DNA of 64,000 nucleotides from Terriglobia bacterium (GCA_963666975.2 CAXVYR010000004.1:608001-672000), one strand, 5' to 3'; counted from the first letter of the stretch, positions 26,635 to 64,000 are shown. Made by a program: numbers and translations. The notes: generated by a model from the sequence alone, not told the origin.

Positions 26635-28548
26635 CTACTCCCCTCCCGCGTACCGGGATTCGAATACAAAATCCAGTTGGGGCCCGATGGGAGCCCTGCC
26701 CAGTTCCTGGGCAAACTCGCTGCGCAGAACCTGAATCTTGCCGCCGACAATCGTCATGAGTGGATTCGTGTCTTCCAGCTCTTCCACCGGAACGGTGAAA
26801 TAGTCCTTATTGAGCACCAGAATATCGGCGAATTTTCCCGGCTCCAGCGATCCCAGCACGTCTTCCTTGAGAACAAAACGCGCGGGCCAGGAGGTCATCA
26901 TCTTCATCAAAGTGATACGGTCAACGGCTTCTTCCGGGGCCACCAGAGCGCCGTACTCATTTTTCCGGGTCAGAAACGGCACCGCTGCGCCAAAATACGA
27001 GCGGCTGGTATTGCCCCTGACCCCGGCCTCGTTTTCCAAAACTACCATCACCCCGCCCTCGATCGCGCTGCGGACCGGAGCGATCCGGTCGATGTAATCC
27101 ATGGAATATCTCTGCAAGTGGGGATAGCTTCGGCTCAGCACATTCGCCCCGCAACTGATAATCATCCCGAATCGGGCCAGGCGAGGGATTTGCGCCTTGC
27201 GCGGATAGAATCCGCAATGATCCGAGGTCAGCCGCCGGGAACGGATATAATCCAGCGTGATCGCCGGATTGTCGCGCATGGCAGCATCCACGGCGTCCAT
27301 GAAATAATCCACTCCTTTATCCGCATAGGCATGCCCCACGGCCACTCGCTGGTAGTTGGCAATTGCCATTCGGGTGGTTTCGTAGTAAACCGTGCCCTCG
27401 GCATTGTCGCACCATTCCATTTCCTTCACTTCCCCCGGGGCCTCCATGGTGGAACAGAACCGGGGAGGGCCGGAATCGATGCTGGAGAGCCCCACAGCGG
27501 ATTGCCAGAGATAGTCGTTGCCCATGCCGGCCATGTCGCCCATCCGCCGGTAGAAGTTTTCCGCCTCGCCATAGCCGGCCTGGAAACCAAACCAGTGCGT
27601 GTAGGCAAAACGGATCGGCATACGATTTTGCCGGGCCAATAAGTTGAAGGCATCCAGGAAACGCAGGCCCATGATGTGTGACGAGTAGGCGGTAATTCCC
27701 ACGGCGGCGTTTTTCAACAAGCCTTGCTCCACAAGGTCGGCCAGTTGCGGCACCCGCGTATGGAAGTACATATCGATGATCAACGCCCGCCGGTACTGCG
27801 CCGCCGTGCTGCGGACTCTTCCGGACTCATCGAGCCCGGCAGCCCTGGGATCGAATTTGGAGCCGTAGAGCTTTTCCATGCCCCGCATGGCCCCTGTGTT
27901 CATTACGTAGGAGGGATGAGAATAAAGCAGGACCGGGTGGTTCGGGGCCAGTTGGTCCAGCATCTGCATCGTGAACTTTTGCGAAGCCAGATACGCCACG
28001 CCCGGCGCTAATCCCGACCCGCCGCCTCCGGCGGCGCTGACAGTGATAAAGGCCCACCGGCCCGGAGCCGCATTACCGGCATGCTGCTCGACCGCCAGCC
28101 GTATCCCCTGCTCCATCTCCGCGTCCGTGTTGCCGGCTACACTGAATTGTTCCGCCAGTTCATCAATGACCTGGGGATTCTGGCCGACCCAATAGTTCAG
28201 TTCGTTGTTGTGGATATGCGTGTGGGCGTCGACGATGCCGGGCATCACCATCCTGCCGTTCACGTCGATCCGTTCGGTTTCCGGCCCGGCCATGCGCAGA
28301 ATCCGGGCATTGCTTCCCACCGCCTGGATTTTGCCGTCCCGGATCGCCACTGCCTCCGCCGTCGTTCCACGCGATGTGTTCAGGCCAAAGGAGGTGTCGT
28401 CCATCGTAACAACCTTGCCGTTGTGGATCAGCATATCGGGATAGGCCACAATCTCTTCCGGGACGGTAACCGTGTTCTGCGCACTTGCCACCCCGCAGAA
28501 AAGGAAAAAACTGATACAAAAACCCAAGCTAACCCTTAATTTTCCCAT
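26635..28548 (-). CDS. Secreted YtcJ-like amidohydrolase (paralog AH1)
   Basis: Signal peptide ending ASA-Q; NGKVVTMD, PGIVDAHTH, GSLEPGKFAD, TIVGG; start at MGKLRV. Confidence 0.85.
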   Translation of the reverse strand: MGKLRVSLGFCISFFLFCGVASAQNTVTVPEEIVAYPDMLIHNGKVVTMDDTSFGLNTSRGTTAEAVAIRDGKIQAVGSNARILRMAGPETERIDVNGRMVMPGIVDAHTHIHNNELNYWVGQNPQVIDELAEQFSVAGNTDAEMEQGIRLAVEQHAGNAAPGRWAFITVSAAGGGGSGLAPGVAYLASQKFTMQMLDQLAPNHPVLLYSHPSYVMNTGAMRGMEKLYGSKFDPRAAGLDESGRVRSTAAQYRRALIIDMYFHTRVPQLADLVEQGLLKNAAVGITAYSSHIMGLRFLDAFNLLARQNRMPIRFAYTHWFGFQAGYGEAENFYRRMGDMAGMGNDYLWQSAVGLSSIDSGPPRFCSTMEAPGEVKEMEWCDNAEGTVYYETTRMAIANYQRVAVGHAYADKGVDYFMDAVDAAMRDNPAITLDYIRSRRLTSDHCGFYPRKAQIPRLARFGMIISCGANVLSRSYPHLQRYSMDYIDRIAPVRSAIEGGVMVVLENEAGVRGNTSRSYFGAAVPFLTRKNEYGALVAPEEAVDRITLMKMMTSWPARFVLKEDVLGSLEPGKFADILVLNKDYFTVPVEELEDTNPLMTIVGGKIQVLRSEFAQELGRAPIGPQLDFVFESRYAGGE

Positions 28549-28728
28549 TGGAGACGACCCCCTTAGTTTCGCTAAAGTTGCTAGTTTTGAAGTCGATGGT
28601 TTGGCCGCGGCGGCGCGGACCACCGTTCATTTGCATACCGATATCTTATCCTGTAACACGACTCCCCCGGAATGACCAAATTCGGACAACCTGCATGGCA
28701 ATCCGTTCCGGACGGCAATAGAGAGGAT

Positions 28729-29229
28729 TGACCTGCCCCCTTAAAACGGTCCAGTTGGTAAGTTTGAGTATAGGGTTTCGACTGGAGTTGGAAAGGGGGA
28801 AAGAATGCCGAAGAAGCGATACACCGCCGAACAAACCATCCGACATCTACGATAGGCGGAAGTGGAGATGGCTAAGGGCCAGACAACCGGAGAGGTCTGC
28901 CGGAAGTTGGGAATCACGGAGCAGAGTTTCAAGACGAGTTTCTGAATGGAGAGATATTCTACACCTTGCGGGAAGCGAAGGTGTTGATGGAGGGATGGCG
29001 ACGGGAGTATAACAAAGTTCACCCGCACAGCACGTTGGGTTACCGGCCGCCAGCCCCGGAAGCGATCTTGCCGTTACCGCCGGGTTGAAATCGCGTCCGC
29101 CGACAGAGCAAGAGGAATCTTTCTTGAAAGCTCAGGCACAATTCCGTCGGACGCTTACGAAAAAACGAAAAGCCGCCCTTCTTTGTAGACTCTAGATGTT
29201 GCAGCCTAGATAAGTATCGGGGACGGTAC
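28729..29229 (+). mobile_element. Internally deleted IS3-family (IS407-like) element
   Basis: TGACCTGCCCC left end; orfA start MPKKRYTAEQ joined to orfB C-terminus DEFLNGEIFYTLREAKV..WRREYN..PHSTLGYRPP; right end degenerate and approximate. Confidence 0.75.
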
Positions 29230-29234
29230 TAGTA

Positions 29235-31145
29235 TTATTTTAGAACCCATCCATCCGGGATCGGTTCTGGCCACGTGCTCGGGCCAGTCGGTTGCATACC
29301 GGTCTCTCTGGCCAGTGCCGCTCCCAAATGGATCGTCTTGCCCCCAACCACAGTCATCAACACAGCGACATTCGGAATGTCCGCCTCCGGAATCGTCAGG
29401 ACGTCCCGATCCAGCACGAGGAAATCAGCATACGCGCCCGGCACTAACATGCCTAACCGTTTCTCCCGCAGCAAGTAGTATCCGCCCCAGGTCGTCAGCG
29501 CCTTCAATTGGGCAATCCGGTCCGTCCTTTCACCCGCTCCGTACACCAATTTGTCGGCCGGATTGTACCGGGTCATCCCCTGCAAGATGAAGAAAAACAC
29601 CTTGTTCGGTAGCGGCCGGTCAATCTCAAACGAGTTCATGATCCCAGCCTCGTTCAAGCTCTTGCGGGGAACCACCCAGTTTGTGTATTCAATCCCATAT
29701 TGTTGCGCAATCTCCCAGGCTCCTCGGTAGTTCTCCCACAAGATGGTATTGAGCATGCTGACCATCATCCCCAGATTCTTGATGCGAGGAATCTGGCCGG
29801 GCCGGGGGGCACCCGCGCTGTGATCGAATGCATGCCGCATGGCACGAATCTCATCCAGCGTCATCCCAGCTTTCTTGCTTCCTTCTTCAATGGCGGCCAT
29901 GATATTGTCAATCCCTTTGTCCCCCCCTGTATGCATCGTGGCAATGCGGAGGCCGGCTTCGGCGGTCCTCATAAGCCTTCCATAATCATCCGTGCCGGGG
30001 TCATTGCTGCACGTTCCATCTCCTCTTCCTCTGCCTCCACCTCCGGGAGGAGCCCCCAATTTCTCAAGCCAATTGGGTATCTCCGGGACTGTCATGCAGC
30101 CGGGACCAGTAGCGGGGAAAGCTCCCACAAACCACAAGTAGTCTGATCCCATTCCCAGGAAGCCAGACAGATGTCGCAATGTAGCTAATTCCCATGCTCC
30201 CTCTCCAGTTATTTGGTGCTGCCATGAAAAACCAATCCGCGCCGGCATTTCACCATTTCGATCCATAAGGTTCATGGCTTGCAGGTTGGTGTAGGAATAA
30301 GGCGCGGAGCCATACGCCGTGATGCCGTACCTGGCCCACAACTCCAATTCTGCCTTCACGAGTTGCGCCAGCTCGGGCAATTTGCCCTTGAGCAATGCGT
30401 CGGAAGGACTGTTACGGCCCAGCCTGCCCGTTTGCACTTCCCGATCGCTGATGTCTTCAAACACACTGCGATATATTTCCACGCCCTTGGTGTTCATCTG
30501 GCAAGCGCTGGTAAAGCCGTTGCTGATGCAGACCGGGTTGTTGGGAGCCAATATATCCAAATATTCTTTCGTGATAGAATTGTTCCAGATTCTGGTGCTC
30601 ATGGGCCCTCTAAATTCTGCAGCGCGTTCGTAGTCCGGGCCCCAGTTGGGGATCACCCGAATCCATTGCCCCGGTTTCGCCTTGGATACCAACTCCTTCA
30701 TCGTGGTCTCAAACAGACTAAACTGTTCCTTCACCGGCCGGTTCGGCAGCCAGCGTGCGAGAATTTCATTGTCATTCGGGAAAACATGCCGAAAGGCACG
30801 AGGCTCCGTCCACATCCAATCTACCGGGTGCTCGTGGGTCATGATGAAGCTGGGCAACACCGTCCGCCCCCGCAGGTCAATCTGCCGGGTCTGTGGTCCC
30901 GCGAGAGATCGGATTTCCGCGTTGTTTCCTGTCTCAAAAACTTTCCCGTCCCGAATGGCCATTGCTTGCGCGATGGTCCCCACATTCGACGTAAACGAGG
31001 TATCGTCCATGCTGACGATCTTTCCGTTGTAAAGGATCATCTGCGGGTAACTGACCAGCTTCGCGGGTGCATTTACGTTCTGAGCCCACGCCGAAGCCGT
31101 GTACAGAAACACACTCAACATTATAGCCAGCAGCATTCTCTGCAT
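29235..31145 (-). CDS. Secreted YtcJ-like amidohydrolase (paralog AH2)
   Basis: Signal peptide AWA-Q; PSFIMTHEH, MHTGGD, FDH, EIDRP, ADFLVLD, TVVGG. Confidence 0.85.
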   Translation of the reverse strand: MQRMLLAIMLSVFLYTASAWAQNVNAPAKLVSYPQMILYNGKIVSMDDTSFTSNVGTIAQAMAIRDGKVFETGNNAEIRSLAGPQTRQIDLRGRTVLPSFIMTHEHPVDWMWTEPRAFRHVFPNDNEILARWLPNRPVKEQFSLFETTMKELVSKAKPGQWIRVIPNWGPDYERAAEFRGPMSTRIWNNSITKEYLDILAPNNPVCISNGFTSACQMNTKGVEIYRSVFEDISDREVQTGRLGRNSPSDALLKGKLPELAQLVKAELELWARYGITAYGSAPYSYTNLQAMNLMDRNGEMPARIGFSWQHQITGEGAWELATLRHLSGFLGMGSDYLWFVGAFPATGPGCMTVPEIPNWLEKLGAPPGGGGRGRGDGTCSNDPGTDDYGRLMRTAEAGLRIATMHTGGDKGIDNIMAAIEEGSKKAGMTLDEIRAMRHAFDHSAGAPRPGQIPRIKNLGMMVSMLNTILWENYRGAWEIAQQYGIEYTNWVVPRKSLNEAGIMNSFEIDRPLPNKVFFFILQGMTRYNPADKLVYGAGERTDRIAQLKALTTWGGYYLLREKRLGMLVPGAYADFLVLDRDVLTIPEADIPNVAVLMTVVGGKTIHLGAALARETGMQPTGPSTWPEPIPDGWVLK

Positions 31146-31157
31146 TGCGTCCTCCTA

Positions 31158-31610
31158 GTCGGAATTTCCGTTTTGGCTCCCAACAGCCCTATAGTGTACA
31201 CACATGGATGGACTCCAGCGCACTATTTCTTCCTTGGCTGGGTCCCGGGGCTTGAAACAGGGGCCTAGCTGCGCCAACACGAGTCTCGAAACTGTTGACT
31301 GCGGCCTTCACATCCGGTTTTATCGGACACCCCTCTCTCCCTGGTGGCTCGGGATCGATTTTCCGGCTGCCACATCCTCCGCCTACCCGTCCGGCACCGG
31401 CAAGACAGCAATCCTTCGGACCATCACTCCGAAGAGCCGCCGGGTCAGATGACTCTCCGCCAACAAAAGCCAATAATAGCGGGCATGCTTCACCAGCCGT
31501 CCGCCGGTCTTCACCAACCGCTGCTGCAGGCTCGTCAGGGACCAGTTCCCGATTCTTTGCGGCAAAGCCAGTCGCCGCCAAAGGTTGCCCAGGTTATAGG
31601 CAATGCTGGT
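31158..31610 (-). mobile_element. IS1380-family remnant (transposase C-terminus plus terminal end)
   Basis: AYNLGNLWRRL..WSLTSLQQRLVKTGGRLVKHARYYWLLLAESHLTRRLF; end-like gtcggaatttcc near 31158. Confidence 0.75.
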
Positions 31611-37860: not shown

Positions 37861-38381
37861 CTCGCTGCCCTCTGCAACGATAAGGATGGGCATCGAAAAT
37901 GATCGAAGCCAACAAGGACCACGCAGGAGAGACGAGACATCTGCAACGAAACGGTCCGCCTGAACGCACACAGGAATATAGCTTAATCCTCGTTTTTGGT
38001 CGAGTCGTAATGTAATTTTTAACGGTTTTGTTTGTTACCTCCCTTCAGCGCCCATCCCACCTTCGGGACAACCTGCCGAGTAGGAGGAGCAATCGGCTAC
38101 TAGCAGATTAGGTATCTCAGCAGGAGTGAGGTTTCCTCGGCAGCAGTTCTCAACGGGCATACTGGTTGAGGCGGCTATCCAACAGATTGGGTCAGATTCG
38201 TTTGGTTCGCAGAGGAAACAATTTGGGCAGCTTTTGTAATGGCGCGAATTTAAACATCTCGGGTGAAATTGCCTCATGGCGGCGACGGCGCCTTTCACCA
38301 TGCGAAAGGGAACCTGAGGGGTCCCGCTACGATCGTAAACTCAAGGTCGGGAGAAAATCCAGAGATAGAGGAGCGCATAGA

Positions 38382-38630
38382 ATGCACAATAAGCTGGAGT
38401 TCATTGATCCGCCGGAATTGGGTAAGCATCCCGGCTACAGTAATGGAATCAAGACAAAATCGGCCAGTCTGCTCTTCGTAGCTGGTCAAGTGGCTTGGGA
38501 TGAAGCCAACAAGATTGTCAGTTCCGAGTTTGTTGGGCAATTTGACCAGGCGTTGTCCAACGTACTTACGGTGGTACAGCAGGCGGGTGGCAAGCCGGAG
38601 GACATTGTCCGCTTGACGATTTATGTGCTG
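38382..38630 (+). pseudogene. RidA/YjgF-family protein, 3' truncated
   Basis: PGYSNGI, LFVAGQVAW, QALSNVLTVV.QAGG..EDIVRLTIYV, then runs into the convergent monooxygenase fragment. Confidence 0.75.
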
Positions 38631-39247
38631 GCCTGCTCGCATTCCACGATACAGGTGCCGGTGTGGCTGTCGAATGGATAGCAGTGCGCCTGGAACAATC
38701 CGTGCTCGTTCTCACAAAACAGGAACGTAAAGGCGTCAAACACCTTATCGGTTCCGAGCCAGATGAACTTGGCGTTTTCTACCGTCACACTCGGCTGGAA
38801 GATGGACTCGTAGGTCTTCCGCACAATGCTGTTGACACCATCGGCGGCGATGATCAGATCATAGTCGCAGAATTCCGACAGGTCGCTCACCTCAACCCCA
38901 AACTTCATCCGGACGCCCGCTTCGCGGCAGTGCTTCTGCAAGATGTTGAGCAGCAGTTTCCGCGAGATGCCGGCGAAGACGTGGCCTCCAGAACGGATGG
39001 TGTGATCGTGGTATTGCACGTCAATGGCATCCCACCTGACGAAGTGTTTCATGATGTCCTGGTAGGTCTCCGAATCAACCTCCTGGAAAGTAGCCAGCGT
39101 CCGTTCGGAAAAAACCACTCCCCAGCCGTAGGTCGCATCGGGCGGATTGCGCTCCAGGAGTGTGATATCGTGGGTTGGGTCCGCCTTCTTCAGCAGAAAT
39201 CCGCTGTATAATCCTCCCGGTCCTCCCCCGATGATGAGAATCTTCAC
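38621..39247 (-). pseudogene. N-terminal fragment of a salicyloyl-/anthraniloyl-CoA monooxygenase-like FAD enzyme
   Basis: IGGGPGGLY, ERNPPDATYGWGVVFS, ADGVNS, FIWLGT, AHCYPFD..TCIVEC; truncated at 208 aa. Confidence 0.75.
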
Positions 39248-39292
39248 GGCATGCGTCTCCCAAACTCTCCAGATGCGTGATGCGTATTCCCC

Positions 39293-39870
39293 CTAGCCAA
39301 CGGCCTCGGCTAGGCGGGCGAGTTGAGTGATGTTGCCCACAGTGGGGAACAAAAGCAGTTCGTCGCAACCTGCTTCTTGATAGCCTTGGATGAACTCGGC
39401 AACGGCTTGCGGGGTAGTGAGCAGGCTGGCGGTGATTCTATCGGCGAACGGTCCTGCGAAAAAATAGTAGTCCTTCATGTAACGGATACCTGCCTCCACC
39501 GCATCTTCGCCGAGCGCATAGTAACCCATTCCCCACAGTAGCAGCTTATCCGGGCGTCCCGCATCGAACCAGGCGGCTCGAGCTTTTTCAGCGGCGCGGG
39601 CGAAAACCCGTGGTGGTCCGCCCCCGTGCAGGTAGCCATTCGCGTAGCGGGCCATGCGGGCAAAAACCGGCTCGCTCGTCCCGCCTACCAGCAGTTCCGG
39701 GCCGCCGGGACGGGCCGGCTTGGGCCCCAAGGTATCCTCCTCCCAGTACGAGCGCAGGGCGCCCAGTTGCTCCGACAGCCGCCTGCCCCGAGATCGGTAC
39801 TCGACTCCCGCCACCTTGTAGTCGGCCTCCCGAGCCCCCACGGCCATGCCCAAGACCAGCCGGATAGTTA
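39293..39870 (-). pseudogene. LLM-class flavin-dependent oxidoreductase, 5' truncated
   Basis: RLVLGMAVGAREADY, GPKP..PGGPELLVGG, AGCDELLL; similarity starts at a MITE end at 39871. Confidence 0.7.
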
Positions 39871-39900
39871 GGTGCTTCCGCCATCCAGTGTTGTTAGGCT
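39871..39900. mobile_element. Terminal repeat of the GGTGCTTCCGCAATC MITE family
   Basis: ggtgcttccgccatccagtgttgttag matches the reverse complement of the right end of 50254-50419. Confidence 0.6.
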
Positions 39901-40411
39901 GCGAGAGACATTCGCTTATTGCTGGCAGCAACTGAGATTGTGGAGGAAACGAACACCAATATGAACTTTTCCCAACAGCGGGAATTCCTTTTTCGATACC
40001 TCTCCAATCATCGTAAGACCCCTTTTGGCATGTACTCAGCATGCTTAATTGTTGGAGGTTGTGCGTTTTCGCCGTTGCCGGATCGAAAGGAAATCATTTC
40101 TGCGCGGCCACCACTGGAGCCCAAGTCAAGACACTGCTCAGCCACTACCGAGGGCTAGGCCTGGCGGAACAAACTGAAGAGAATTTAATTGAGGTCCGCG
40201 AATTCTGCTATTCGCTCTCTTTTGTTCCTGGTGGGCCGCAACAGCAATGCAAGAACTCCCCCAAGCCTGATATTCCCAATTATCACTATATTACCACTCG
40301 GCGATCCGTGACTATTTTCCGAGTTTGTTACCAACGTGTTTAGGGATTATGGTGGAATTACTTCTCGGATGGACTCCCTGAAAAAATGAGGGAAGCCCAC
40401 CAGAATAAAGC

Positions 40412-40439
40412 TTGACAACCAGATTAGGAAAAGCATAGT
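40412..40439 (+). promoter_or_regulatory. Putative sigma70 promoter of the TonB receptor-amidohydrolase cluster
   Basis: TTGACA-N16-CATAGT about 115 bp upstream of the ATG. Confidence 0.45.
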
Positions 40440-40553
40440 GTTAACCACATATTGTGGACGTTTTACAAGATAATTCAAACTGCATCGTTCCTGAAGGCAA
40501 GGGAGAAAGCACTTGTCAGCCGAGCGATCCGTAACCGCAAACAGGAGGAAGTT

Positions 40554-43500
40554 ATGTCAGTGAGAAGGCTTTGGTCGGTGGTATTGGTGTGTGCGTTTTT
40601 CATCGGTGGAATCACTTGGGCTCAGGTGACCACTGGGACGATCTCGGGAACCGTAACCGACTCTACCGGAGCGGTGATTCCCGGAGCCACCATCACATTG
40701 AGGAACGTGGAGACGGGGATTACCCGCACAATCTCCACCGATGCGGCGGGCCGTTACACGGCTCAGCAGTTGGGGCTGGGCGGCTACGAAGTCACGGCGG
40801 GGTCGGCGGGCTTTCAAACTTTGATCCGGAGCGGCATTGAGATGACCGTGGGCCGGCAAGCGGTGTTGGATTTCGCCTTGCAAGTGGGAGCGGTGGCTGA
40901 GTCGGTGACGGTGACCGGGGAAGCTCCGTTGCTGGAGACCACCAACTCAACGGTGGCCGACCTGGTCACTGAGAAACAGATGCGGGATCTGCCGCTGAAC
41001 GGCCGCAGCTTTACGAATTTAGTGGCCATCCAGCCGGGTGTGGTTACAGATCTCGGGATTCCTCAGGGGGTATTCCAAGGTGGAGGCAGGATGTCACTGA
41101 ACGGTGCTCGCCCGCAGCAAAGCTTATACCTGCTGGACGGAACCGATATTGTGGCTCCCTATTCGAATGTGGCTCCTGTCAGCGTATTGTTCCAGGCGCT
41201 GGGAGTGGACACCATTCGGGAATTCTCCGTTTTGCAAAACAACTACGGAGCCCAGTATGGCCGCGCCGTCGGCGGCATCATGAGTGCCGTCACCCGTTCG
41301 GGCACCAACCAGATACACGGCAGCCTGTTTGAGTTTATGCGGAATGAGAAGCTGGACGCCAAGAACTTTTTTGATTCGGGCGAAGATTCGATCCCGCCCT
41401 TCAAGCGAAACCAGTTTGGGGGAACGATTGGGGGACCGATTGTGCAGGACAACACCTTTTTCTTCTTCTCCTACGAAGGTCTGCGGCAGGTCCTGGGAAC
41501 GACGGATTTCGGCACCGTATTCAGCGACGAGACGCGGCTAGGGGTGATCACAGGTTGTCCCCCAGGGCAGTCGAGTTGCACGGAAGAAGAGCGCATTGTG
41601 GCAGACACAGTAACAGTGAATCCTGACATCCAGCCTCTCATCGCCATCGCCCCGCGAGGTAACGGCCGCTATCTGAACGATGGAATTCAGGAATTCTTCG
41701 GCAGCCGGTCGCAGCGGGGCCGGGAGAGTTACTACATGTTCCGCATTGATCAGCGGATCAGCGACAACGACAGTTTGTTTGGCCGGTGGACGGGCGATCA
41801 CAGCAGCAAGGAACTTACCGATGCCCAGTTCTTCGCGGACGGTAGCGGCAGACACACCAGCACCGACGACGACGGTTTCTATGGCTTCTTGACAGTGGAA
41901 TGGACACGAATCCTGTCGCCTACGGTCATCAATATTGCGCGGGCAGGGTTTGCTCGAAACAACAACCGCCAGTGCATGTGCATTGATGGGACTGAGATTG
42001 GTGTGAACGAAATAAGTCACCCCGACTATCCCGTTGGCATGATCCCGGCGCAGTTGCAAATCATCCCCGGAATCCCGTTCGGAGGGCCGTGGGGGATGCC
42101 GGGTGTTGACATTCCTGGCGGGCACAATGGTATTGGCCGTCATACCGAAGGTGCGGACTTGGACGATCCCTTACATTACGTTGACAACACCTTCAGCTTT
42201 GCGAACTCTGTCCGCATTGCAAAGGCCGGGCACTCGGTGGACATCGGCGTGGACGTGAGGCGCTATCAAGAGAACGCGCTGCAATCGGTATGGGGCAAGG
42301 GAGGCACCAACTTCCGTTCCCCCATGCGGAACTTCTTGACCGCCGGCAGACCCGATCTTTGCCTGGAAGGGGGTGAGAGTTCCCGCAACTGCCGTGGGCT
42401 TAACACGCTCACTACGACAGGGATAACCGGACCGCCCGATTCATATCGCGGATTCAGGCAGACCTACTATGCCATGTTCTTTCAGGACGACTACCAAATC
42501 CGGCCGAACCTGACCTTGAACTTTGGGATCCGGTGGGAGTCAATTACGGGGCCTACAGAAGTCAACCAAAAGGTGGCGACCATCCTGGACGTATTGAACG
42601 ATGCGGATTGGACCCAGTTGGGGGACAAACCCTTGTTTGAGCTGCGCGATGGGTTGAAGGGTTTTTCTCCGCGATTCGGCTTTGCTTACAGCCCGGATCA
42701 AAGCACCTCCATCCGCGGTGGTTTTGGAACGTTCCGGGAGATGCCGTTGTTGTACTCGTACCAGTTAGCTGTTTTTTACCCCCCGTTTTCGGATCGGCTA
42801 CAGATACGGTCATTCCCACTTGATGCGTGGCCGAACCCCTTGGCTGGCATTGATCCGGCCGGAGCCCGGCGGCAGCCGCTGACGGTCAACCACGACTACA
42901 AATACCCGTACAGCATGCAATGGAACTTGCAGATTGAGCGGCAGATTGGGCAGACATGGGTAGCCAAGGCCGGCTATGTGGGGACCCGTGGGATCAGTCT
43001 CATATCGATCAATAACCTGCTTCAGCCAGCCCAAGAACTAGATGACCAGGGTGTGCCGTTCACACCTCGCAACGCACCTTCCCCCAATCCGGCCATCTTC
43101 TCGACTCGTAGTTACGGCAATTTTGGGGATTCCTGGTACAACGCGCTGCAACTGCGTCTCAAAAAGCGCTTCAGCCATGGAATAGATTTCAATTTTGGTT
43201 ATACCTGGTCGAAGAACATCGGCGATACGGGAATCGGCCTGAAGGGCGCAGAAACCCCGGGAGGAGACAGTCAGCAAGTCGGCTCCTTATGGGACTGGAA
43301 GATACTTGACAGGGGACTGGTCGCCCAGGACACTCGTCACAACTTCACGTTCAACTTCAGCTACGACGTCCCAATCGGGCCGGGGCGCTTCTTTGGCGGT
43401 AACATGGGCAGTGTCGCGAATACCATCCTCGGTGGCTGGCAGCTCAATAGTATCTTCAAAGCGCGATCAGGGTTACCGATGACCATTTCTGGAGGCGGCT

Positions 43501-50459: not shown

Positions 50460-53411
50460 TTATTTAAGCAAAGCCTGGTCCACCTGCACGCCCGAGGCAC
50501 CCAATGGAGTGGCACCCAATTCGAGAAGCAGATTCGCCGTAATCTCGCGCATCGCGCGCGGTTTCGCGTTAAAGGCATCCGCCAAACCCACTGTAAGGAT
50601 GTTCGACGTGATACTCAACGGCGTTTGGCCCCACTTATCCATCACGTCCATCTTGGCACCCCTGTCCACCAGAAACTGAATGATTGTATTCAATCCGCTG
50701 TATGCTGCGGCGTGCAGTGCGGTCTGGCCCACTTCGTTGGCCGCATTGACATCGGCGCCCAATTCCACAGCCAATTTGAAGGCTTCGAGAGCGCGCCTCT
50801 CCGCCGCCTCCGTGGAAGGTGTCCCAAACTCAGTTGCAGGTTGGGACGGCGGGTTGAGTTCATATTACGCCACTTCCTCCTTGTGAGAGGAAGCAGCGTT
50901 TGGACTTCGGCCGAGAATCGATGCCAAAGCCCAGAGATCGTGATAACCCATGATCTTCCGGAAATTCTTCTCGGTCAGCAGAAACGCTCCTGCCACCCAG
51001 CGCAACGTCATCTCGCCGTCGCGCCAGCGGCAAACATTGCCAGTCTTTTTCCGCACGCCCGACTGCGGGCTCTCGATGAGGTTCGTGGTTGCCAGGCAGC
51101 GGTGGAGGCTGGGAGGAACGTCGGCTCGATTGATCGTAAAGGTCTCCTCCAACCCTTCGCGCAAGCTGGCGGCTGCTGCCGGATGATCGCACTCGATCAT
51201 CCCAGCGAGCTTCTTTATGCGCACGATGCCTTCCTCGGCTTGGGGCAATCGCCAGGCGGCGCGCATCAGCGACCGCACCTGATTCGCCAGCATTTTGTCG
51301 CCCTTTGGTAACCGCTCAGCCACGTTGCGCAGCTTATGAGTACGGCAACGCTGCACCAGCTGATTGCTGCCGAATACTTCCTCGATCCCCGCGCGGAGCG
51401 CTTTGGCGCCGTCGATCACAAACAGATAGCGCTGATCCGTGCGCAGACCTTGCTGGCGCAGGCGGGTGAGAAGGTCTTTCACCGCAGCGGCGTTTTCGGT
51501 CGCGCCCAGTTGAATCCCCAGCACATGCTTGCGGCCCTCGCTGTCCACGCCCACGGCGCTGATGACGTGGTGGGAGCCGAACCGCATTCCGTCCAGGTAA
51601 ATCACCAGAATCTCGACCTCCTCCCAGCGCCGCGCCAACAGTTCTTCCAGCCGCCGCGCTCCTTGCTCGGCCGCTTCCCGGCTCACCTGAGACTTCGACA
51701 CCCCAGCGCTGTTGGCCATCTCCGGGATCACCTCGCGGTAGTTCCGCGTCGAAACCCCTTTCAACAGTGCCTCGAACATCTCCTCGCCCGTCTTCTCGCT
51801 TTTCCGCAGCGCTTCGTAGGCCGGCACCGCTTCTTCCCCTCCGCCCTTCCGGCGCAGCCGGGGCCGCTCCACCCGCAGCTGGCGATCGGCCAGTTTCACC
51901 CTCCCCAATTGCCGGCCATGCCAGCGCACCTCTCCGCTCGCCTTCCCGGGACTCTTTGGCCCCGCGATTTGCTCTGCGCTCATGCTCAGAATCGTTTCAA
52001 TCAAACCTCGCCCGGCCCGATCAATCACCTCATCCACCGCCAGACGCGCCTCCGTGATCAGATCCACCACCGGCAACAGCATCTGTCCGTTGGTTTGGCA
52101 AAACTTCTGGATGGTTTCTTCGGCTCCCTTGGAACCCAGTTCCAAAACGTGATATTTTCCCTTCATTCGGCGGTTCTCCTTCTATAGGATTTAGGCTTGG
52201 CCCGATTCTATTCGATTCGGGCCGAACCGCCGTTCAACCTTCAACTATGTATGGGACACCCTCCCTCCGTGTATATTCGATAGTTATTTGGATTTACGTC
52301 GTTATGCTCAGTCGCAGCGCCCCCTCCCGCCGCCAGAAGCAGCGATGTGGTATTGTCCTCCATTGCCAACAAAGGATCGGCGCCGCTGGTCGCCAGGACA
52401 CGCATGACGCCGGTGTTGTTGTTCATGGCTGCCAGCAAAAAAGGGGTTGCGCCAACTAGGACTATGCCTCCGATTGCAGGCACGTCCTTCCCGAGTCGAG
52501 CGTTCGGATTCGCTCCATGTGCCAGGAGCGCCTTCACCAATTCCTCCATGGTCCGGGAGGTGATGATTATAGCCCCTTGATATCTGCGGCCCAGGTTCTG
52601 CCCCGACGCCGCATAGTGTAGAGCAGTAAACCCTTTTCCGTCGACCGTCGCGTTCGGGTCCGCGCCTTTGTCCAGCAGAAATACGGAAAGCGCTTCGTGT
52701 CCGCTGGAGCTCGCCACCAGTAAGGCGCTCATGCCGTCCGGCGCGGCCTCATTCACATTCGCTCCCGTTGCCAGTAGTATCTGGGCAGAGTCCAGATCGC
52801 CCTGCTGGGCAGCAAACAGCAACGGGGAAAAACCGCCTTTCGAACGGGCATGAACATCCGCTCCGTGCTCGATCAACGGTCGCGCGACATCCGGGTGTTT
52901 TCTTGCCAAAGCCCACATTAGTGCCGTTTGCCCCCCCTGATTTTCTGCCGCGTTTGGGTCCGCTCCGTTAGCCAGCAGCGACTTCACCGCCTTCACGCTT
53001 CCGGTGTCCGCGGCCGCCATGAGCGGCGTTTCTCCTAACGGCAGGGCGGCGTTCGGGTTTGCCCCGGCGCTCAACAGCTTCTCGACCATGACAGCGTTCC
53101 CATTGCGGCAAGCTAGCCATAGAGGAGTGGCGCCATAGTCGTTCCTTGCATTCACGTTTGCGCCGGCATGAATTAGAAGTTCCGCCGTTTCCAGATCATC
53201 CAGGTGGACCGCCCATGCCAGTGCTGTCGCGCCATCCGCACCCGAGCGCATTTACATCGCTGTGGTGCTGTAGCAGGGAGCGGACGGCCTCCTTATCTCT
53301 CTTCTTAACCGAATCAATCAGCCGAAGATCGCTGCTGGCGGCAGCTAGGCTGGCGACTGAAAGCAGAGTTACTATACACCAGACACCAAAAAGCCTAATT
53401 TCAGCACCCAT
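50460..53411 (-). pseudogene. Secreted ankyrin-repeat protein, split by IS256 and frameshifted near 53245
   Basis: Signal peptide; repeated GxTAL/GADVNA ankyrin units; removing the IS and one TSD rejoins ...YTE-AAERRALEAFKLAVELGAD... Confidence 0.88.
50815..52263 (-). mobile_element. IS256-family element; transposase 50865-52166
   Basis: TIRs GAAGGTGTCCCA../GAGGGTGTCCCA.., 8-bp TSD CCTCCGTG; GVSTR, YLDG, IDG, QRC..HK, TTNLIES motifs. Confidence 0.95.
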
Positions 53412-55015: not shown

Positions 55016-58000
55016 GGCTCTTCCGGCCTCCTCATCTGAAATGGAGTGCTGTTGACTATTCCCAAAACTAGCTCCGACCACCGGTAGTCGCGGGCAGCGA
55101 CCTCCCTTGTGATCTTGCGGATGGCTGGAAAGTCGTAATACTCGACTCCCCGGCCGAGGGCGTAAGTGAGAAGTTTTTCCGTGAGGGTAGTGACAAAATC
55201 TTCGCGACGGCTCAGCAATATTTGCCGGAGCTCCGCAGGACCTTGAAACTTGGTGCCGTCGGGCAGCACCCCGGACGCATCAATAGGAGTGTTCGCCACG
55301 CCGCTGGTGGTCCGCCACCTGCCGATCGCGTCATAGGTTTCGAGCGCGAAGCCCAACGGGTCCATCAGTCGGTGGCAACTTGCGCAGACGGGATTCTTGC
55401 GGTGCTGTTCCATGCGCTCGCGCATTGTGAGGGCCTTGGCATCATTGTCTTCCTTCAATGATGGCACGTTCGCTGGCGGCGGCGGGGGTGGCGTACCCAA
55501 AATGTTTTCGAGCAGCCACTTGCCGCGTATCGTCGGGGCTGTCCTGGTGGCATACGACGTCACTGTCAGAATGCTGCCATGGCCCAGCAACCCTCTCCGA
55601 TTTTCATCGCTCAACGTCACGCGCCGAAACGTGCTGCCGTGAATATTCGGGATCTGATAATGCCGGGCCAAACGTTCGTTGAGGAACGTATAATTCGCGT
55701 CCAATAAATCCAGCACGCTCCGATCCTCGCGCACAATGCTTTCGAAGAAAAGCTCCGTCTCTCGCTGGAATGCCTCCCGCAGGTTGTCGTCGAACTCGGG
55801 AAAGACTGTACGTCGTCAGATAATGTTGGACACAGAGCATAAAAAGATAAGGTGGCGTTCAGGCTCCTCTGGGTTGATGTTAGGCTGCCCTTCTTTTGAA
55901 GTGCAACCGTTTTCTTAAGATCATAGTTTTCTCTTTGATGCGATCCCGTTTTTGCAGGATGGCACTGCCTTGGCCTGTAAAAACGTCATACGGTGTCAGG
56001 TTGTTCAGGCTTTCATGGTATCGGTTGGTGTTGTAGTGGTTGACGAAGGCATCGATCTGCCGCTCCAGCTCTTCTGGCAGGTAATAGTTGTTGAGCAGGA
56101 TGCGGTCTTTCAGAGTTCGGTGCCAGCGTTCGATCTTGCCCTGCGTCATGGGGTGATAGGGCTTGCCGCGAGTATGCGGCACGCTGTTTTCTGCCAGCCA
56201 TGATTGCAGTTCGGAAGAGACGTAGCACGGCCCGTTGTCGCTCAGGAGGCGAGGTCTGTGCCGGGCGCCCACGCGGTCGAGGCCGGTGGCTTGCAAAGCA
56301 TCCCGCAACGTGGCCGAGACGTCACTTGCGCTCATGGTTTTGCACAGCCGCCAGGCGATGATATAGCGCGAGAAGTCGTCCAGCACCGTGGACAGGTAGA
56401 ACCAGCCCCAACCGATGACTTTCAGGTAGGTGAAGTCGGTCTGCCAGAGCTGGTTGACCGCCGTGGTCGGGTTGGCGAACCGTTCCGCCGCTTTCAGGAC
56501 AATAAAGGCTGGCGCGGTAATCAGGTCATGGCTTTTCAGGACGCGGTAAACCGTCGATTCAGAAAGGTAATACCGCCTTTCCTCGGTAAAACGCACCGCC
56601 AGCTCGCGTGACGACAGATCGGGCTCGGCCAGGGCTAACGTCACCAACTGCTGAGTTATCTCCTCCGGCACCTTGTTCCAGACAGGGCCAGGATCGGGTT
56701 TTTTGTCTTCCAGCCCATCAAAGCCTTCCGACACATAGCGGTCGTACCAGTTGTAAAACGTCGATCTGGGAATGCCAACCTGCTGCAGCGTCCGGCGCAC
56801 CCCCAGGGCAGATTGCTCCACCGTGCAGATGATCTCCAGCTTCTCCGAGGCAGGGTATCTCATGTATGTTCCTCCCCATCCCCGATCACGCTTTTTTTTA
56901 GCAGGCGATTTTCCAGCATAGCCTCGGCCAGGGCCTCTTTCAGCTGTACGGCCTGCTCCCGCAGAGTCTTGACTTCGCCACTGGTTGCCTCACGGTCTAT
57001 GTCGCCCGCCAGCCGCTTGCGGCCAGCCTCCAGAAACTCCTTGCTCCAGCGGTAATACTGGTTCTGGTGCAGCCCCTCGCGGCGGCACAGCTCCGCGATG
57101 CTGTCCTCGCCGCGAAGTCCCTGCAATACAATGCGGATTTTGTCTTCCGGGCTGAACCTGCGCCGCGTCCTGCGTTTGATCTCCCGGACGGCCTTCTCGA
57201 CCGCCCCCCTGTCGTCTTGTTTTTGTCTCATCTTCGTTCCTTTCAGTCTCTACGATGAGCCAAAAACATCACCTTAACTATTACCCTCTACCTGTCCAAC
57301 AAGCCCTGACGGGGCACAGGGAAAGACATCTGGATCCGGATACACCGAATCCATGTTGCGCAGGTATAGCCACTGTCCGGCAAAATTGCTCACCAGCGCC
57401 TCCGAGCGAGAATCGCCGAGCATACGCCTAACCTGCTCTTCCAGTACCGCAGGATCTTTGAGCTTACCGCGTTCGGCCCAGTCTAAAAGCTCCTCGTCAG
57501 GTATGCTGCTCCACAGGAAAAAAGACGAACGGGAGGCCAGTTCGAGGTCGCTGATGCCATAAGCGTTACCCGGCGCCACGTTCGCCGGGTCGCGTTCGAC
57601 GCGGAACAGGAACCCTGGACTAACCAGCATTCCCTGGAGGGCCATCCTGATTCCTGCTTCGAACCCTCCTTTGCTTTGGCCAGCCTTGTAGAGGCTCAAT
57701 AGAGGCTGTACATCTTCGTCAGTTACAGGCCGGCGATAAGCGCGACGCGCTAGCGTGGAGAGAATCTTCTTGGCGCAGGGCTCTGCGTCTCCGCTGTCGG
57801 CTGGGCGGCACACAAAAATCTTGCGGCGACTGGGTGTGTCCCCCGGCCCTTCTGGATCGTAGGGCCCAGCGATCATGACACTGCCCACGCCCTCCCGCGA
57901 TTCCTTCCCCAACCTAGCGTTCCGCTCAAGTGCACCTTCAGGTTTCACAGTTCCTTTCAAGAACGTGACCCCAACCAGATGCGGACCCGCTTTCGCCGGG

Positions 58001-58995: not shown

Positions 58996-59143
58996 GGTGC
59001 TTCCGCAATCGACTGTTGGTGCGATCAGCATAACCCTATAATGTTCAATATGTTGCTGGAAGAAATGGCCTTAGTAGTTCTGAAGCGTGGCAAATATAGA
59101 ATCAGCCAATTTGTTGTTGGAGATAGGAATGCGCTAACAACAC
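58996..59143. mobile_element. Second, right-end-truncated copy of the GGTGCTTCCGCAATC MITE
   Basis: Aligns by eye over about 148 bp with the copy starting at 50254, same orientation. Confidence 0.8.
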
Positions 59144-62690: not shown

Positions 62691-63257
62691 GATCGTCTCC
62701 GTAATAGTGTAATTTTAGGAGCAGAAAAATCGCCTTGCGCCACCGCGTAGCAAACGCAGATAATCGTCTTCCCAGAACCTGAAGGATTGTTCACCGGAAC
62801 AATCTTCCCATTATCCGGAATTAACTTTTTGCCCTTACGGCGGTTGCGAGTATACCCTCGCTTGCCTCCAGTCGAGCCCACCGAGCACAATTGTTTACTC
62901 GAGATGGTCCCGCTGGCTCCCAACCGCCCTTTTCCAGGTCCTGAAAACGCATCGGCCCGGCTGTTTTTTGCTGAAATCGCACGGCCATACGAGCCAACCG
63001 CGCAGTTCCTGGATGCGGGGACTTCCTGCACTTGGTTATGTGTTTGTCGTGACTGTAGTGGGTATATAGGGAGGGTATACCCTGGAGGACCCAGGCCAAG
63101 TCGCCTCCGGCCCTTCCTTTCCATCCCCCTCACAAGTCATTACACCCACTACGGGTCTGCGGAGACGAGGCTTTCAAATTTCTGATCGCTTGTCCCAGTA
63201 GATCCCTATTTGTCAGAAGGCCTACCCCACGACGGAAGCCGCAACTCGGCGCATCTT

Positions 63258-64000
63258 TTACCATTGAGCCGCTGGTCCGCCGAGTTCCACCTGGGCCCCG
63301 GTCGGTTGCATCCCGATTTCGCGGGCCAGAGATGGAACCAGATGGACTACCTTGCCGCCCAGCATGGTCATCAACACCCGCAACTTGGGAATCTCCTCCA
63401 CCGGAACTGTCAGGTAGTCCTGATCGAGCACAATCAGGTCCGCCCATTTGCCCGGCTCCAGCGACCCCAGCACATCTTCCCGCAACGTCCCATAGGCCCC
63501 CCAGAGCGTCGCCGACTTCAACATCGCCCTGCGATCTATCCCTTGTTGCGGTGCGACAACCTTTCCGTCCCAATCTTTTCGGGTAATACCGGAATAAAGA
63601 ACATGGAAAAACGTTAGGTTGGTGTATTCACTAAGGGGCCGGTCAATTTCGACGCTGTTCATGATGCCCGCTTCATAGAGACTCTTGCGAGGAACCACTT
63701 GCATGGCACCCCGCTCGCCGTAATCCCGGAGGACGTCCTGTCCCCTTCCTTCCCAAATAAAAAAGTCCCAACCACTGGTCATCATGCCCAGCTCTTTGTA
63801 CCGTGGGATCTGGTCTGGCCGCGGATACATGGCCATGTGTTCGGTCACATGGCGTTTGGCCCGAATCTCATCCGGCGTCATGCCGGCATCCTTGCTCGCC
63901 TTCTCGATGATGTCCAGGACCCGATCTATCTCCCCATCCCCTATCTGATGGTCTCCCATCAGCCGCCCGCCGGCCTTGATATATTCATAAAGAGCCTTAT
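63258..64000 (-). CDS. YtcJ-like amidohydrolase (paralog AH6), C-terminal part; runs off the window
   Basis: HQIGD, KRHVTEH, EIDRP, GSLEPGKWAD, TMLGG, LAREIGMQP tail shared with AH2-AH5. Confidence 0.85.
   Translation of the reverse strand, partial: KALYEYIKAGGRLMGDHQIGDGEIDRVLDIIEKASKDAGMTPDEIRAKRHVTEHMAMYPRPDQIPRYKELGMMTSGWDFFIWEGRGQDVLRDYGERGAMQVVPRKSLYEAGIMNSVEIDRPLSEYTNLTFFHVLYSGITRKDWDGKVVAPQQGIDRRAMLKSATLWGAYGTLREDVLGSLEPGKWADLIVLDQDYLTVPVEEIPKLRVLMTMLGGKVVHLVPSLAREIGMQPTGAQVELGGPAAQW

What the first reader, a model, noticed from the sequence alone, without database searches (positions are those of the whole stretch)
26635..64000. Six paralogues of one amidohydrolase clade within 37 kb
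Seen: AH1 (26635-28548), AH2 (29235-31145), AH3-5 (44023-49948) and partial AH6 share architecture and a distinctive C-terminal LAxExGxxPxG tail. All five complete copies have signal peptides and intact frames, while many neighbouring genes are pseudogenes. Inference: a lineage-specific expansion under selection, suggesting a periplasmic scavenging repertoire important to this organism.
Basis: partly seen in the sequence, partly recalled or inferred. Interest (0 to 1): 0.7.

Follow-up and report, generated by a model that had tools for sequence, protein, structure and literature searches.

The report
Ninety-copy exported amidohydrolase gene family
The six amidohydrolase genes are real, but they are a small sample of about ninety related exported enzyme genes that fill roughly 4% of this acidobacterial genome and probably break down imported nitrogen-containing compounds.

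Summary
All six ORFs exist at the stated coordinates and are Amidohydro_3 (PF07969) proteins of about 630 aa. The five complete ones have intact frames and Sec-type signal peptides. They are not one local clade. They fall into three deep clades of a family with 87 full-length ORFs plus 13 fragments in this 4.23 Mb Acidobacteriota genome, arranged in 52 arrays of up to 7 genes.

With one profile at E<=1e-40, the own genome gives 95 matches, a same-genus genome 95, two same-family genomes 43 and 24, and two genomes of other families 3 and 1. One distant acidobacterial lineage has 37 at E<=1e-120.

Copies diverge under purifying selection (dN/dS 0.12-0.35). HxH, two His and Asp are kept, but the carbamylated Lys of YtcJ-like enzymes is missing. 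A co-varying Cys pair is present.

Arrays are enriched next to TonB-dependent receptors (16 of 52 against 5.2 expected). The receptor, AH2 and parts of AH3/AH4 occur in metatranscriptome contigs.

Best reading: a periplasmic hydrolase repertoire fed by outer-membrane importers. The substrates are unknown.

The parts
26635..28548 (-). AH1: exported Amidohydro_3 protein (637 aa from the ATG at 28548). It belongs to a separate deep clade, with Glu in place of the beta8 Asp.
   Evidence: PF07969 E 1.4e-35. Signal peptide MGKLRVSLGFCISFFLFCGVASA. D505->E. Orthologues in L014 and L012.
29235..31145 (-). AH2: exported Amidohydro_3 protein (636 aa), clade A.
   Evidence: PF07969 E 8.3e-26. 68% identical to AH4. 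Groups with AH4, L003_2433 and L004_3917. Covered by RNA-library contigs in 4 runs.
24917..26368 (-). DASS-type anion:sodium symporter, 266 bp downstream of AH1 on the same strand. Candidate inner-membrane importer of a product.
   Evidence: Na_sulph_symp E 2.8e-41 and CitMHS E 9.4e-33. The link to AH1 is inferred from position only.
40452..43919 (+). TonB-dependent receptor-like outer-membrane protein (1155 aa) heading the AH3-AH5 array.
   Evidence: OMP_b-brl_4 E 7e-179, plus CarboxypepD_reg and Plug. RNA-library contigs with 0 differences span 40463-43931 in 4 runs. An orthologous receptor stands upstream of two AH genes in L002.
40412..40439 (+). Promoter-like site (TTGACA-16-CATAGT) ahead of the receptor gene.
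   Evidence: 10 of 12 matches. The number of such sites in the region is not above the shuffles. RNA contigs of four runs begin at 40463 or 40466. A weak hint only.
44023..45912 (+). AH3: exported Amidohydro_3 protein (629 aa), clade A, 103 bp after the receptor gene.
   Evidence: PF07969 E 3.5e-38. AlphaFold2 model with pLDDT 93.8. Best folds 3igh and 3icj. Sister of AH5.
46107..48002 (+). AH4: exported Amidohydro_3 protein (631 aa), clade A.
   Evidence: PF07969 E 3.1e-25. 75% identical to L003_2433.
48035..49948 (+). AH5: exported Amidohydro_3 protein (637 aa), tandem duplicate of AH3.
   Evidence: 82% identical to AH3, dN 0.111, dS 0.612.
63258..64000 (-). AH6: C-terminal 246 aa of a 627-aa family member (G000:C4:671258-673141). 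It belongs to a clade of 24 own copies.
   Evidence: PF07969 E 3.5e-25. Tree. 96% identical orthologue in G001, at most 59% in G002, G003 and G012.
50865..52166 (-). Mutator-family (IS256-like) transposase directly after the AH3-AH5 array.
   Evidence: Transposase_mut E 3.6e-35. 50 ORF copies at >=95% identity in the genome.
55880..57231 (-). IS3-type element (HTH_Tnp_1 and rve ORFs) that splits a DUF1592/DUF1588 gene.
   Evidence: The rve ORF has 33 near-identical copies.
38166..40042 (.). Three truncated gene remnants (L-PSP, FAD_binding_3, luciferase-like) upstream of the receptor.
   Evidence: Each matches only part of its Pfam profile: 10-74 of 121, 3-168 of 349, and 99-245 of 314.

Best explanation
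The six genes belong to a family of about 86 exported amidohydrolases of about 630 aa, a distinct offshoot of the YtcJ-like (COG1574, PF07969) enzymes.

Proposed mechanism:
- Each protein is exported by the Sec pathway and stabilised by a disulfide (C349-C375, AH3 numbering).
- It hydrolyses a C-N bond, or a related bond, at a metal centre built from HxH (H102, H104), H401, H438 and D505.
- The centre lacks the bridging carbamylated lysine, so it is probably mononuclear.
- Substrates are small organic molecules brought across the outer membrane by TonB-dependent receptors, which head many of the arrays (here 40452-43919 before AH3-AH5).
- Products enter the cell through nearby symporters (here the DASS transporter after AH1).
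- The family grew by tandem duplication and IS-associated dispersal in one acidobacterial family, most strongly in this genus. Copies are kept by purifying selection, giving a wide range of specificities.

Shown: family size, taxonomic restriction, conserved catalytic residues, export signals, receptor linkage, and presence in RNA libraries.
Inferred: periplasmic site, metal number, disulfide, hydrolytic activity, substrate class, and the product-uptake route.
For: Family membership and fold:
- PF07969 is above its cut-off in all six.
- The AF2 model has pLDDT 93.8. The best folds are 3igh and 3icj, with TM 0.75 and 0.73.

Size:
- 87 ORFs of >=550 aa and >=200 bits, plus 13 fragments.
- 95 profile matches at E<=1e-40, 88 of them near full length.

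Restriction:
- At E<=1e-40: G001 95, G012 43, G003 24, G016 3, G026 1.
- In an even sample of 120 other Acidobacteriota genomes, only G146 has matches above 500 bits. It has 37 at E<=1e-120.

Catalytic columns: H102 87/87, H104 87/87, H401 86/87, H438 87/87, D505 83/87.

Export:
- 72 of 87 pass a strict home-made rule. By eye nearly all do.
- C349 (83/87) and C375 (81/87) are both absent in the same 4 proteins.

Selection: dN/dS is 0.12-0.35 in nearest pairs with dS<1.

Receptor linkage:
- 16 of 52 arrays lie within 3 kb of a receptor gene. The permutation mean is 5.2 and the maximum 13 in 2000.
- 7 arrays have a same-strand receptor ending less than 1 kb upstream.
- 8 of 29 relatives' loci also hold a receptor-like ORF.

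Symporters (SSF, MFS, DASS) occur near arrays.

RNA-library contigs of 4 runs from one study cover the receptor, AH2 and parts of AH3/AH4.
Against: - No member is characterised. Databases give only 'amidohydrolase family protein' or 'predicted amidohydrolase YtcJ'.
- The lysine that is essential in the nearest characterised relatives is absent, so catalysis is not assured.
- 36 of 52 arrays have no receptor within 3 kb. AH1, AH2 and AH6 are among them.
- No SusD-like gene or dedicated regulator was seen beside the window's arrays.
- Signal peptides were judged with my own rule, not SignalP.
- The RNA evidence is assembled contigs from one study. It cannot give expression levels or exclude DNA carry-over.
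- Periplasmic versus extracellular location is not resolved.
- The AH1 clade has Glu instead of the beta8 Asp.
Confidence: 0.6

Rival explanations
1. The enzymes are released outside the cell through a secretion system and act on external polymers or conjugates. The receptors then import the products rather than the substrates.
For: The nearest characterised PF07969 relatives, the Bilophila metallo bile salt hydrolases, have Sec signal peptides and are found in culture supernatant next to a type II secretion locus (passages of preprint 10.64898/2026.04.05.716592). Signal peptides here have no lipobox.
Against: No secretion-system genes were seen in the window or in the 20 flanks surveyed. Receptor-first operon order fits import of the substrate. 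The C-terminal tail is modelled as ordered, with pLDDT 87-98 over residues 601-629, so it does not look like a free sorting signal.
Confidence: 0.2
2. The family spread mainly as neutral or selfish amplification, carried by the genome's many IS elements, without adaptive diversification.
For: About 50 Mutator-type and 33 IS3-type near-identical transposase ORFs. IS copies flank arrays. There are 13 family fragments and one copy with an internal stop. Two pairs of gene-sized duplicates are 98.4-98.8% identical in DNA.
Against: dN/dS is 0.12-0.35. Most nearest pairs have dS of 0.4 to above 1, so the copies are old and still intact. Catalytic residues are kept in 83-87 of 87. AH6 has a 96% orthologue in G001. 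The expansion is shared across a taxonomic family.
Confidence: 0.08
3. The proteins have lost catalysis (no bridging lysine) and serve as periplasmic binding proteins or chaperones for receptor cargo.
For: There is no conserved Lys or Glu at the beta4 position: the commonest residue in columns 341-344 reaches at most 29 of 87. K373A abolishes activity in BwBSH1.
Against: The five other metal or catalytic residues are nearly invariant. From general knowledge (recalled, not tested here), mononuclear amidohydrolases without that lysine are active enzymes, for example adenosine and cytosine deaminases.
Confidence: 0.07
4. The copies are assembly artefacts, that is, collapsed or duplicated repeats.
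For: Two pairs of proteins are identical between contigs C3 and C4.
Against: None of the window's six has an identical twin. Their nearest paralogues are 52-82% identical. The two identical pairs lie in 2.2-2.6 kb duplicates whose DNA is 98.4-98.8% identical, not exact copies. Relatives' genomes show the same arrays.
Confidence: 0.01

Closest known systems
YtcJ-like metal-dependent hydrolases (COG1574; PF07969), structures 3ICJ and 3IGH from Pyrococcus
   Same: Same Pfam family. They are the best sequence and fold matches (profile E 4.9e-36 and 3e-28; TM 0.73-0.75). They share the composite beta-sandwich plus (beta/alpha)8 barrel, HxH, two His, Asp, and the C-terminal GxLExGKxAD motif.
   Different: The Pyrococcus proteins are shorter (468-534 aa in the structures), have no characterised function, and carry GVKLF with the beta4 Lys. 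Here that position is variable and a Cys pair is conserved instead. The proteins here also have signal peptides, extra inserts and, in about two thirds of copies, a 25-aa tail.
Bilophila wadsworthia metallo bile salt hydrolases (BwBSH1/2), preprint 10.64898/2026.04.05.716592 (passages read)
   Same: PF07969/COG1574 enzymes with a Sec signal peptide, several paralogues per genome, and 3ICJ as the closest solved fold. They hydrolyse an amide bond between an acyl group and an amino acid or taurine. A Bilophila locus (L055) encodes a 26%-identical relative of AH3.
   Different: BwBSH1 has 945 aa with an extra C-terminal domain, a dinuclear Zn site with an essential carbamylated K373, and lies next to a type II secretion locus. 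The Bilophila relative in L055 keeps the Lys (GGVKIMSDG), while this family does not. The BwBSH substrate-binding residues were not compared, because I had no BwBSH1 sequence.
Polysaccharide utilisation loci of Bacteroidota (SusC-type receptor plus periplasmic hydrolases); comparison from general knowledge, recalled
   Same: An outer-membrane TonB-dependent transporter gene heads an operon of several exported hydrolases. Many such loci occur per genome, with diversified enzymes.
   Different: The enzymes are amidohydrolases, not glycoside hydrolases. No SusD-like partner or hybrid two-component or ECF regulator was seen. Only 16 of 52 arrays lie near a receptor.
Caulobacter Cc2672 and related periplasmic amidohydrolase carboxypeptidases (PDB 3MTW)
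   Same: Amidohydrolase-superfamily enzymes that act on small peptides. 3mtw appears as a fold match at rank 42.
   Different: A different Pfam family (Amidohydro_1-like), about 400 aa, and only a distant fold match (TMq 0.34). This genome has its own separate Amidohydro_1 array behind a receptor.
D-aminoacylase / N-acyl-D-amino-acid deacylases (PF07969; 1M7J, 3GIP)
   Same: Same Pfam family, with weak profile matches (E 7.8e-08 and 5.8e-06). From recall, they use a Cys instead of the carbamylated Lys as a metal ligand.
   Different: Only short N- or C-terminal stretches align. The conserved cysteines here lie after beta4 and are lost together, which fits a disulfide better than a metal ligand.

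Membership tests
Amidohydro_3 (Pfam PF07969) | Match to the family HMM above the gathering score (29.7 bits) | tested here: met
   89.9-132.7 bits for the six window proteins.
Amidohydrolase superfamily | (beta/alpha)8 barrel with a composite beta-sandwich domain | tested here: met
   AF2 model with pLDDT 93.8 and pTM 0.92. 363 PDB matches at E<=0.001. All those listed are amidohydrolase-superfamily entries, and the best are 3igh and 3icj.
Amidohydrolase superfamily | HxH after beta1, His after beta5 and beta6, Asp after beta8 | tested here: met
   H102 and H104 87/87, H401 86/87, H438 87/87, D505 83/87 (Glu in AH1 and two clade mates, His in one).
YtcJ-like dinuclear hydrolases (COG1574/cd01300), including metallo bile salt hydrolases | Carbamylated Lys after beta4 that bridges two metals (K373 in BwBSH1, essential) | tested here: not met
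   GVK of 3icj and GGVK of the Bilophila relative align with variable columns 341-344. No Lys or Glu is conserved there, and the commonest residue reaches at most 29 of 87. The definition comes from passages of the preprint.
Metallo bile salt hydrolases | Sec signal peptide / secreted enzyme | tested here: met
   An n-h-c pattern with a WAQ|Q-type site in all five complete window copies and in full AH6. 72 of 87 genome-wide pass a strict rule. Sequence only: no SignalP and no localisation data.
Metallo bile salt hydrolases | Substrate-binding residues for taurine conjugates (S194, H196, Q381, N443, H544 of BwBSH1) and bile salt hydrolase activity | not tested
Activity needs an assay.
PUL-like receptor-linked utilisation loci | A TonB-dependent receptor gene adjacent to the hydrolase genes and co-oriented with them | tested here: met
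   AH3-AH5 follow the receptor after 103 bp. 16 of 52 arrays lie within 3 kb, against a permutation mean of 5.2. It is not met for AH1/AH2 or AH6.
PUL-like receptor-linked utilisation loci | SusD-like lipoprotein partner and a dedicated regulator | tested here: not met
   No SusD, ECF sigma/anti-sigma or hybrid two-component Pfam hit among 128 window ORFs or 127 flank ORFs.
D-aminoacylase type (Cys-bridged site) | A conserved Cys shortly after HxH that serves as a metal ligand | tested here: inconclusive
   The conserved Cys349 and Cys375 lie after beta4 and are lost together in 4 of 87. Model coordinates could not be inspected to measure distances.

The most novel reading that the evidence does not exclude
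These arrays are the enzyme half of an undescribed kind of 'amide utilisation locus'. It would be a receptor-coupled, PUL-like system in which dozens of Lys-less, probably mononuclear YtcJ-type amidohydrolases each handle a different imported N-acyl, peptide-like or heterocyclic compound. That would let a small-genome acidobacterium live on a chemically diverse pool of organic nitrogen and carbon.
Probability: 0.3. Interest if true: 0.8.

Novelty: new variant of a known kind. Interest (0 to 1): 0.62.

Why it matters
About 4% of a 4.2 Mb genome is one uncharacterised enzyme family. That is a strong hint about what this uncultured acidobacterial lineage lives on.

The family departs from its nearest characterised relatives at a defining catalytic residue, so it may represent a new active-site subtype in the amidohydrolase superfamily.

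The link to TonB-dependent receptors suggests a non-carbohydrate counterpart of polysaccharide utilisation loci.

The roughly 86 natural variants, many in tandem and under purifying selection, form a ready-made panel for studying how substrate range evolves and for finding new amide-cleaving activities.

My literature searches found no description of this expansion.

Tried and rejected
- NCBIfam gave only short N-terminal or C-terminal matches, far below every curated cut-off, so it yields no functional name.
- The protein-database search and the ESM Atlas returned only generic amidohydrolase/YtcJ labels, all from Acidobacteria.
- Literature searches: searches found nothing on this expansion. 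Passages of 10.1101/2025.02.21.639455 and PMC5649159 proved irrelevant.
- Promoter and terminator scans were not above their shuffles: 6 against 5.5, 8 against 9.4, 3 against 3.9, and 15 against 9.7. They give no operon boundaries.
- RNA contigs left several parts uncovered in all four runs: most of AH1 (27301-28632), 31963-32628, and the gene remnants at 37957-39954.
I make no habitat claim from them.
- The 'own-only' look of the AH6 clade in the tree partly reflects sampling, because the outside loci were fetched with AH3 as the query. One search showed that G001 shares the clade.
- I considered a Cys349 metal-ligand reading. I prefer a disulfide because the two Cys are lost together, but I could not measure distances in the model.
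- The per-segment entropy profile shows the most variable stretches at 161-180, 201-260, 341-360 and 461-480. I could not map them to the pocket, so this is not used as evidence.
Full report
**1. The observation**

ORF listing shows intact frames at 26635-28623(-), 29235-31145(-), 43972-45912(+), 46107-48002(+) and 48035-49948(+). A 5'-open frame lies at 63258-63998(-).

All six match Pfam Amidohydro_3 (PF07969) above its 29.7-bit cut-off, at 89.9-132.7 bits. NCBIfam gives only short end matches, far below every curated cut-off.

AH6 continues beyond the window to G000:C4:673141 and has 627 aa.

The tail LAxExGxxPxG is exact in AH2-AH6, and AH1 has F for the L.

Pairwise identities:
- AH3/AH5: 82%.
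- AH2/AH4: 68%.
- AH2-AH5 among themselves: 60-82%.
- AH6 against AH2-AH5: 39-42%.
- AH1 against all others: 30-32%.

So the genes are real and are not duplicates of each other. They are also not a tight clade.

**2. The real scale**

The window is G000:C4:608001-672000, in a genome of 4,234,367 bases in 4 contigs, 98.9% complete.
- PF07969 gives 130 match pieces in this genome.
- With my own six-frame ORF set and an HMM of the six proteins, 120 ORFs hit at E<=1e-5. Of these, 87 have >=550 aa and >=200 bits, and 13 are fragments.
- One of the 87 (C3:680133-681818, 561 aa) is a canonical YtcJ-like protein, which I used as outgroup. One (C3:886493-888205) lacks its N-terminus. That leaves about 85-86 members of the long form.
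- A 72-sequence profile (A2) finds 95 matches at E<=1e-40. Of these, 88 are near full length, and one of them has an internal TAA.
- The 87 ORFs form 52 arrays: one of 7, one of 5, three of 4, three of 3, ten of 2, and 34 singles.
- At about 1.9 kb each, they take roughly 4% of the genome.

**3. Who else has it**

The closest public homologues (70-78% identity) are all 'amidohydrolase family protein' or 'predicted amidohydrolase YtcJ' from Acidobacteria/Terriglobia metagenome bins. They often stand in tandem arrays of 4-5.

Counts with the same A2 profile:

| Genome | Relationship | Threshold | Matches |
|---|---|---|---|
| Own genome | - | E<=1e-40 | 95 |
| G001 | same genus | E<=1e-40 | 95 |
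| G012 | same family | E<=1e-40 | 43 |
| G003 | same family | E<=1e-40 | 24 |
| G016 | another family of the class | E<=1e-40 | 3 |
| G026 | another family of the class | E<=1e-40 | 1 |
| G002 | same genus, 83% complete | E<=1e-120 | 51 |
| G146 | distant family, 3.6 Mb | E<=1e-120 | 37 (includes a six-gene array) |
| G116 | another family | E<=1e-120 | 0 |

In total 50 of 121 genomes, the own one included, had a match at E<=1e-80. Only G146 had matches above 500 bits. The rest had 0-5 matches of at most 377 bits. This tally includes the unpublished genomes G063 and G086, with one weak match each, and nothing rests on them.

The expansion is therefore confined to a few acidobacterial lineages and peaks in this genus.

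**4. Phylogeny**

I built a FastTree of 155 rows: 87 own copies and 68 from other genomes. The outside loci had been fetched with AH3 as the query, which biases the sampling.
- AH2-AH5 fall in a starred 18-row clade that holds 12 outside sequences. AH3 and AH5 are sisters. AH2 and AH4 group with L003_2433 and L004_3917.
- AH1 sits in a separate deep clade with L014 and L012.
- AH6 sits inside a clade of 24 own copies.
- The six need at least 4 origins by starred branches.

AH6's window part has a 96% identical orthologue in G001, which also has about 19 further matches at 59-85% identity. G002, G003 and G012 reach at most 59%. So this clade expanded in the lineage shared with G001. Only AH3/AH5 look like a duplication made at this locus.

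**5. Selection and turnover**

Nei-Gojobori estimates on nearest-neighbour pairs give dN/dS of 0.12-0.35 wherever dS is below 1. For AH3/AH5, dN is 0.111 and dS 0.612, a ratio of 0.18.

Two protein pairs are identical between contigs C3 and C4. They lie in 2.2-2.6 kb duplicates with 98.4-98.8% DNA identity, next to IS copies.

The genome carries 50 near-identical Mutator-type and 33 IS3-type transposase ORFs. IS copies flank many arrays. Together with the 13 fragments, this indicates birth-and-death evolution under purifying selection.

**6. The protein**

The AlphaFold2 model of AH3 has pLDDT 93.8 and pTM 0.92. Its tail is ordered, with pLDDT 87-98 over residues 601-629. Foldseek's best matches are two uncharacterised Pyrococcus hydrolases, 3igh and 3icj (TM 0.75 and 0.73). 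Imidazolonepropionases, triazine hydrolases and molinate hydrolases follow at a distance.

Conservation across the 87 own copies:

| Residue (AH3 numbering) | Conserved in | Note |
|---|---|---|
| H102 | 87 of 87 | |
| H104 | 87 of 87 | |
| H401 | 86 of 87 | |
| D405 | 86 of 87 | |
| H438 | 87 of 87 | |
| D505 | 83 of 87 | Glu in AH1 and two clade mates |

The carbamylated lysine of the YtcJ type aligns with variable columns where no Lys or Glu is conserved. That lysine is GVKLF in 3icj, GGVK in a Bilophila relative, and GAFK in a Solibacteraceae relative.

C349 (83/87) and C375 (81/87) are both absent in the same four proteins. I read them as a disulfide, which fits an exported protein.

72 of 87 N-termini pass a strict home-made signal-peptide rule. 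Most of the rest fail only because of one acidic residue or a slightly lower hydrophobicity.

**7. Context**

In the window:
- AH3-AH5 follow, after 103 bp, a 1155-aa TonB-dependent receptor-like gene (CarboxypepD_reg, Plug and OMP_b-brl_4).
- AH2 and AH1 are followed on the same strand by a DASS symporter.

Genome-wide:
- 16 of 52 arrays (39 of 87 genes) lie within 3 kb of one of 38 receptor-like genes of >=600 aa. In 2000 random placements the mean was 5.2 and the maximum 13.
- 7 arrays have a same-strand receptor ending less than 1 kb upstream.
- In relatives, 8 of 29 loci also hold a receptor-like ORF. These include the orthologue of the window's receptor before two AH genes (L002), and a receptor before the AH1 orthologue (L014).
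- The flanks of 20 further regions show more receptors, SSF and MFS symporters, IS elements, and a second expansion: six tandem Amidohydro_1 genes behind a receptor.
- No SusD-like or regulator genes were found.

**8. Expression**

Six RNA-labelled runs hold part of 40452-49948. Four of them, from one study, hold 37-61% of the sampled words.

I laid these four runs on 26635-46600:
- Their contigs cover the receptor gene from 40463 to 43931 without a difference.
- They cover most of AH2 and parts of AH3 and AH4.
- Contigs cannot give expression levels, and the tool warns that DNA can be present in RNA libraries.
- All four runs have a contig beginning at 40463 or 40466. That is 24-27 nt after a promoter-like TTGACA-16-CATAGT site. 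This is a weak hint only.

**9. Comparison with what is known**

A 2026 preprint (10.64898/2026.04.05.716592; passages read) shows the following:
- Secreted PF07969/COG1574 enzymes of Bilophila are metal-dependent bile salt hydrolases.
- Their closest solved fold is 3ICJ.
- They have a dinuclear zinc site.
- Their carbamylated K373 is essential.

That is the nearest characterised function: cleavage of an acyl-amino acid or acyl-taurine amide by an exported enzyme. The family here shares the fold, the export signal and five of the six site residues, but not the lysine. I therefore file it as a new variant in the amidohydrolase superfamily, not as a member of that group.

Searches for a description of this expansion found none. 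Supplements were not consulted.

**10. Verdict**

The finding is real and larger than reported. The most likely function is a periplasmic hydrolase repertoire coupled to outer-membrane importers (confidence 0.6). The substrate class, the metal stoichiometry and the cellular location are inferred and need the experiments listed under next steps.

Noticed in passing
window 50865-52166(-) and 55880-57231(-); genome-wide: Heavy IS load. The Mutator-family transposase ORF has 50 copies, and the IS3 rve ORF has 33 copies, at >=95% identity in the 4.23 Mb genome.
   Followed up: partly
window 55012-55734(-) and 57274-59031(-): One DUF1592/DUF1588/DUF1585 (PSD/PSCyt-type) gene is split by the IS3 insertion. 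The PSD4 profile is divided between the two pieces.
   Followed up: partly
G000:C4:208947-221821 (locus L094): A second, separate expansion: six tandem Amidohydro_1 genes (487-509 aa) directly behind a TonB-dependent receptor gene. Amidohydro_1+TIG proteins occur elsewhere (L087, L090).
   Followed up: no
window 40412-40466(+): RNA-library contigs of four runs all begin at 40463 or 40466, just after a TTGACA-16-CATAGT site and 11 nt inside the longest ORF of the receptor (TTG at 40452). The true start codon may lie further downstream.
   Followed up: no
window 52241-53251(-): A 336-aa ankyrin-repeat protein (Ank E 1.3e-54), unusual for free-living bacteria. Together with the IS load and gene remnants, it may hint at a host-associated lifestyle. 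This is not shown.
   Followed up: no
window 18151-20802(-): An 883-aa ORF between the ribosomal-protein cluster (1-16400) and a multicopper oxidase has no Pfam match at E<=1e-5.
   Followed up: no
window 32658-34660(-): A DEAD-box helicase gene (32658-33815) lies next to an RRM_1-domain protein ORF (33995-34660). RRM proteins are uncommon in bacteria.
   Followed up: no
G000:C3:308601-310439 = C4:577921-579759; C3:880557-882392 = C4:773381-775216: Two family members have protein-identical twins on another contig. They lie in gene-sized (2.2-2.6 kb) duplicates of 98.4-98.8% DNA identity, next to 1.45 kb IS copies. These look like very recent dispersed duplications.
   Followed up: partly
G146 (another acidobacterial family), e.g. 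G146:C1:1813217-1824809: An independent or shared expansion of the same long amidohydrolase form in a distant lineage: 37 matches at E<=1e-120 in 3.6 Mb, including six in a row.
   Followed up: partly
AH3 residues 307 and 396 (window 44941-44943 and 45208-45210): Two arginines are invariant or nearly so across the family (R307 87/87, R396 86/87). They may bind a substrate carboxylate, which would fit N-acyl amino acid or peptide substrates and the neighbouring anion symporter. This is speculation.
   Followed up: no
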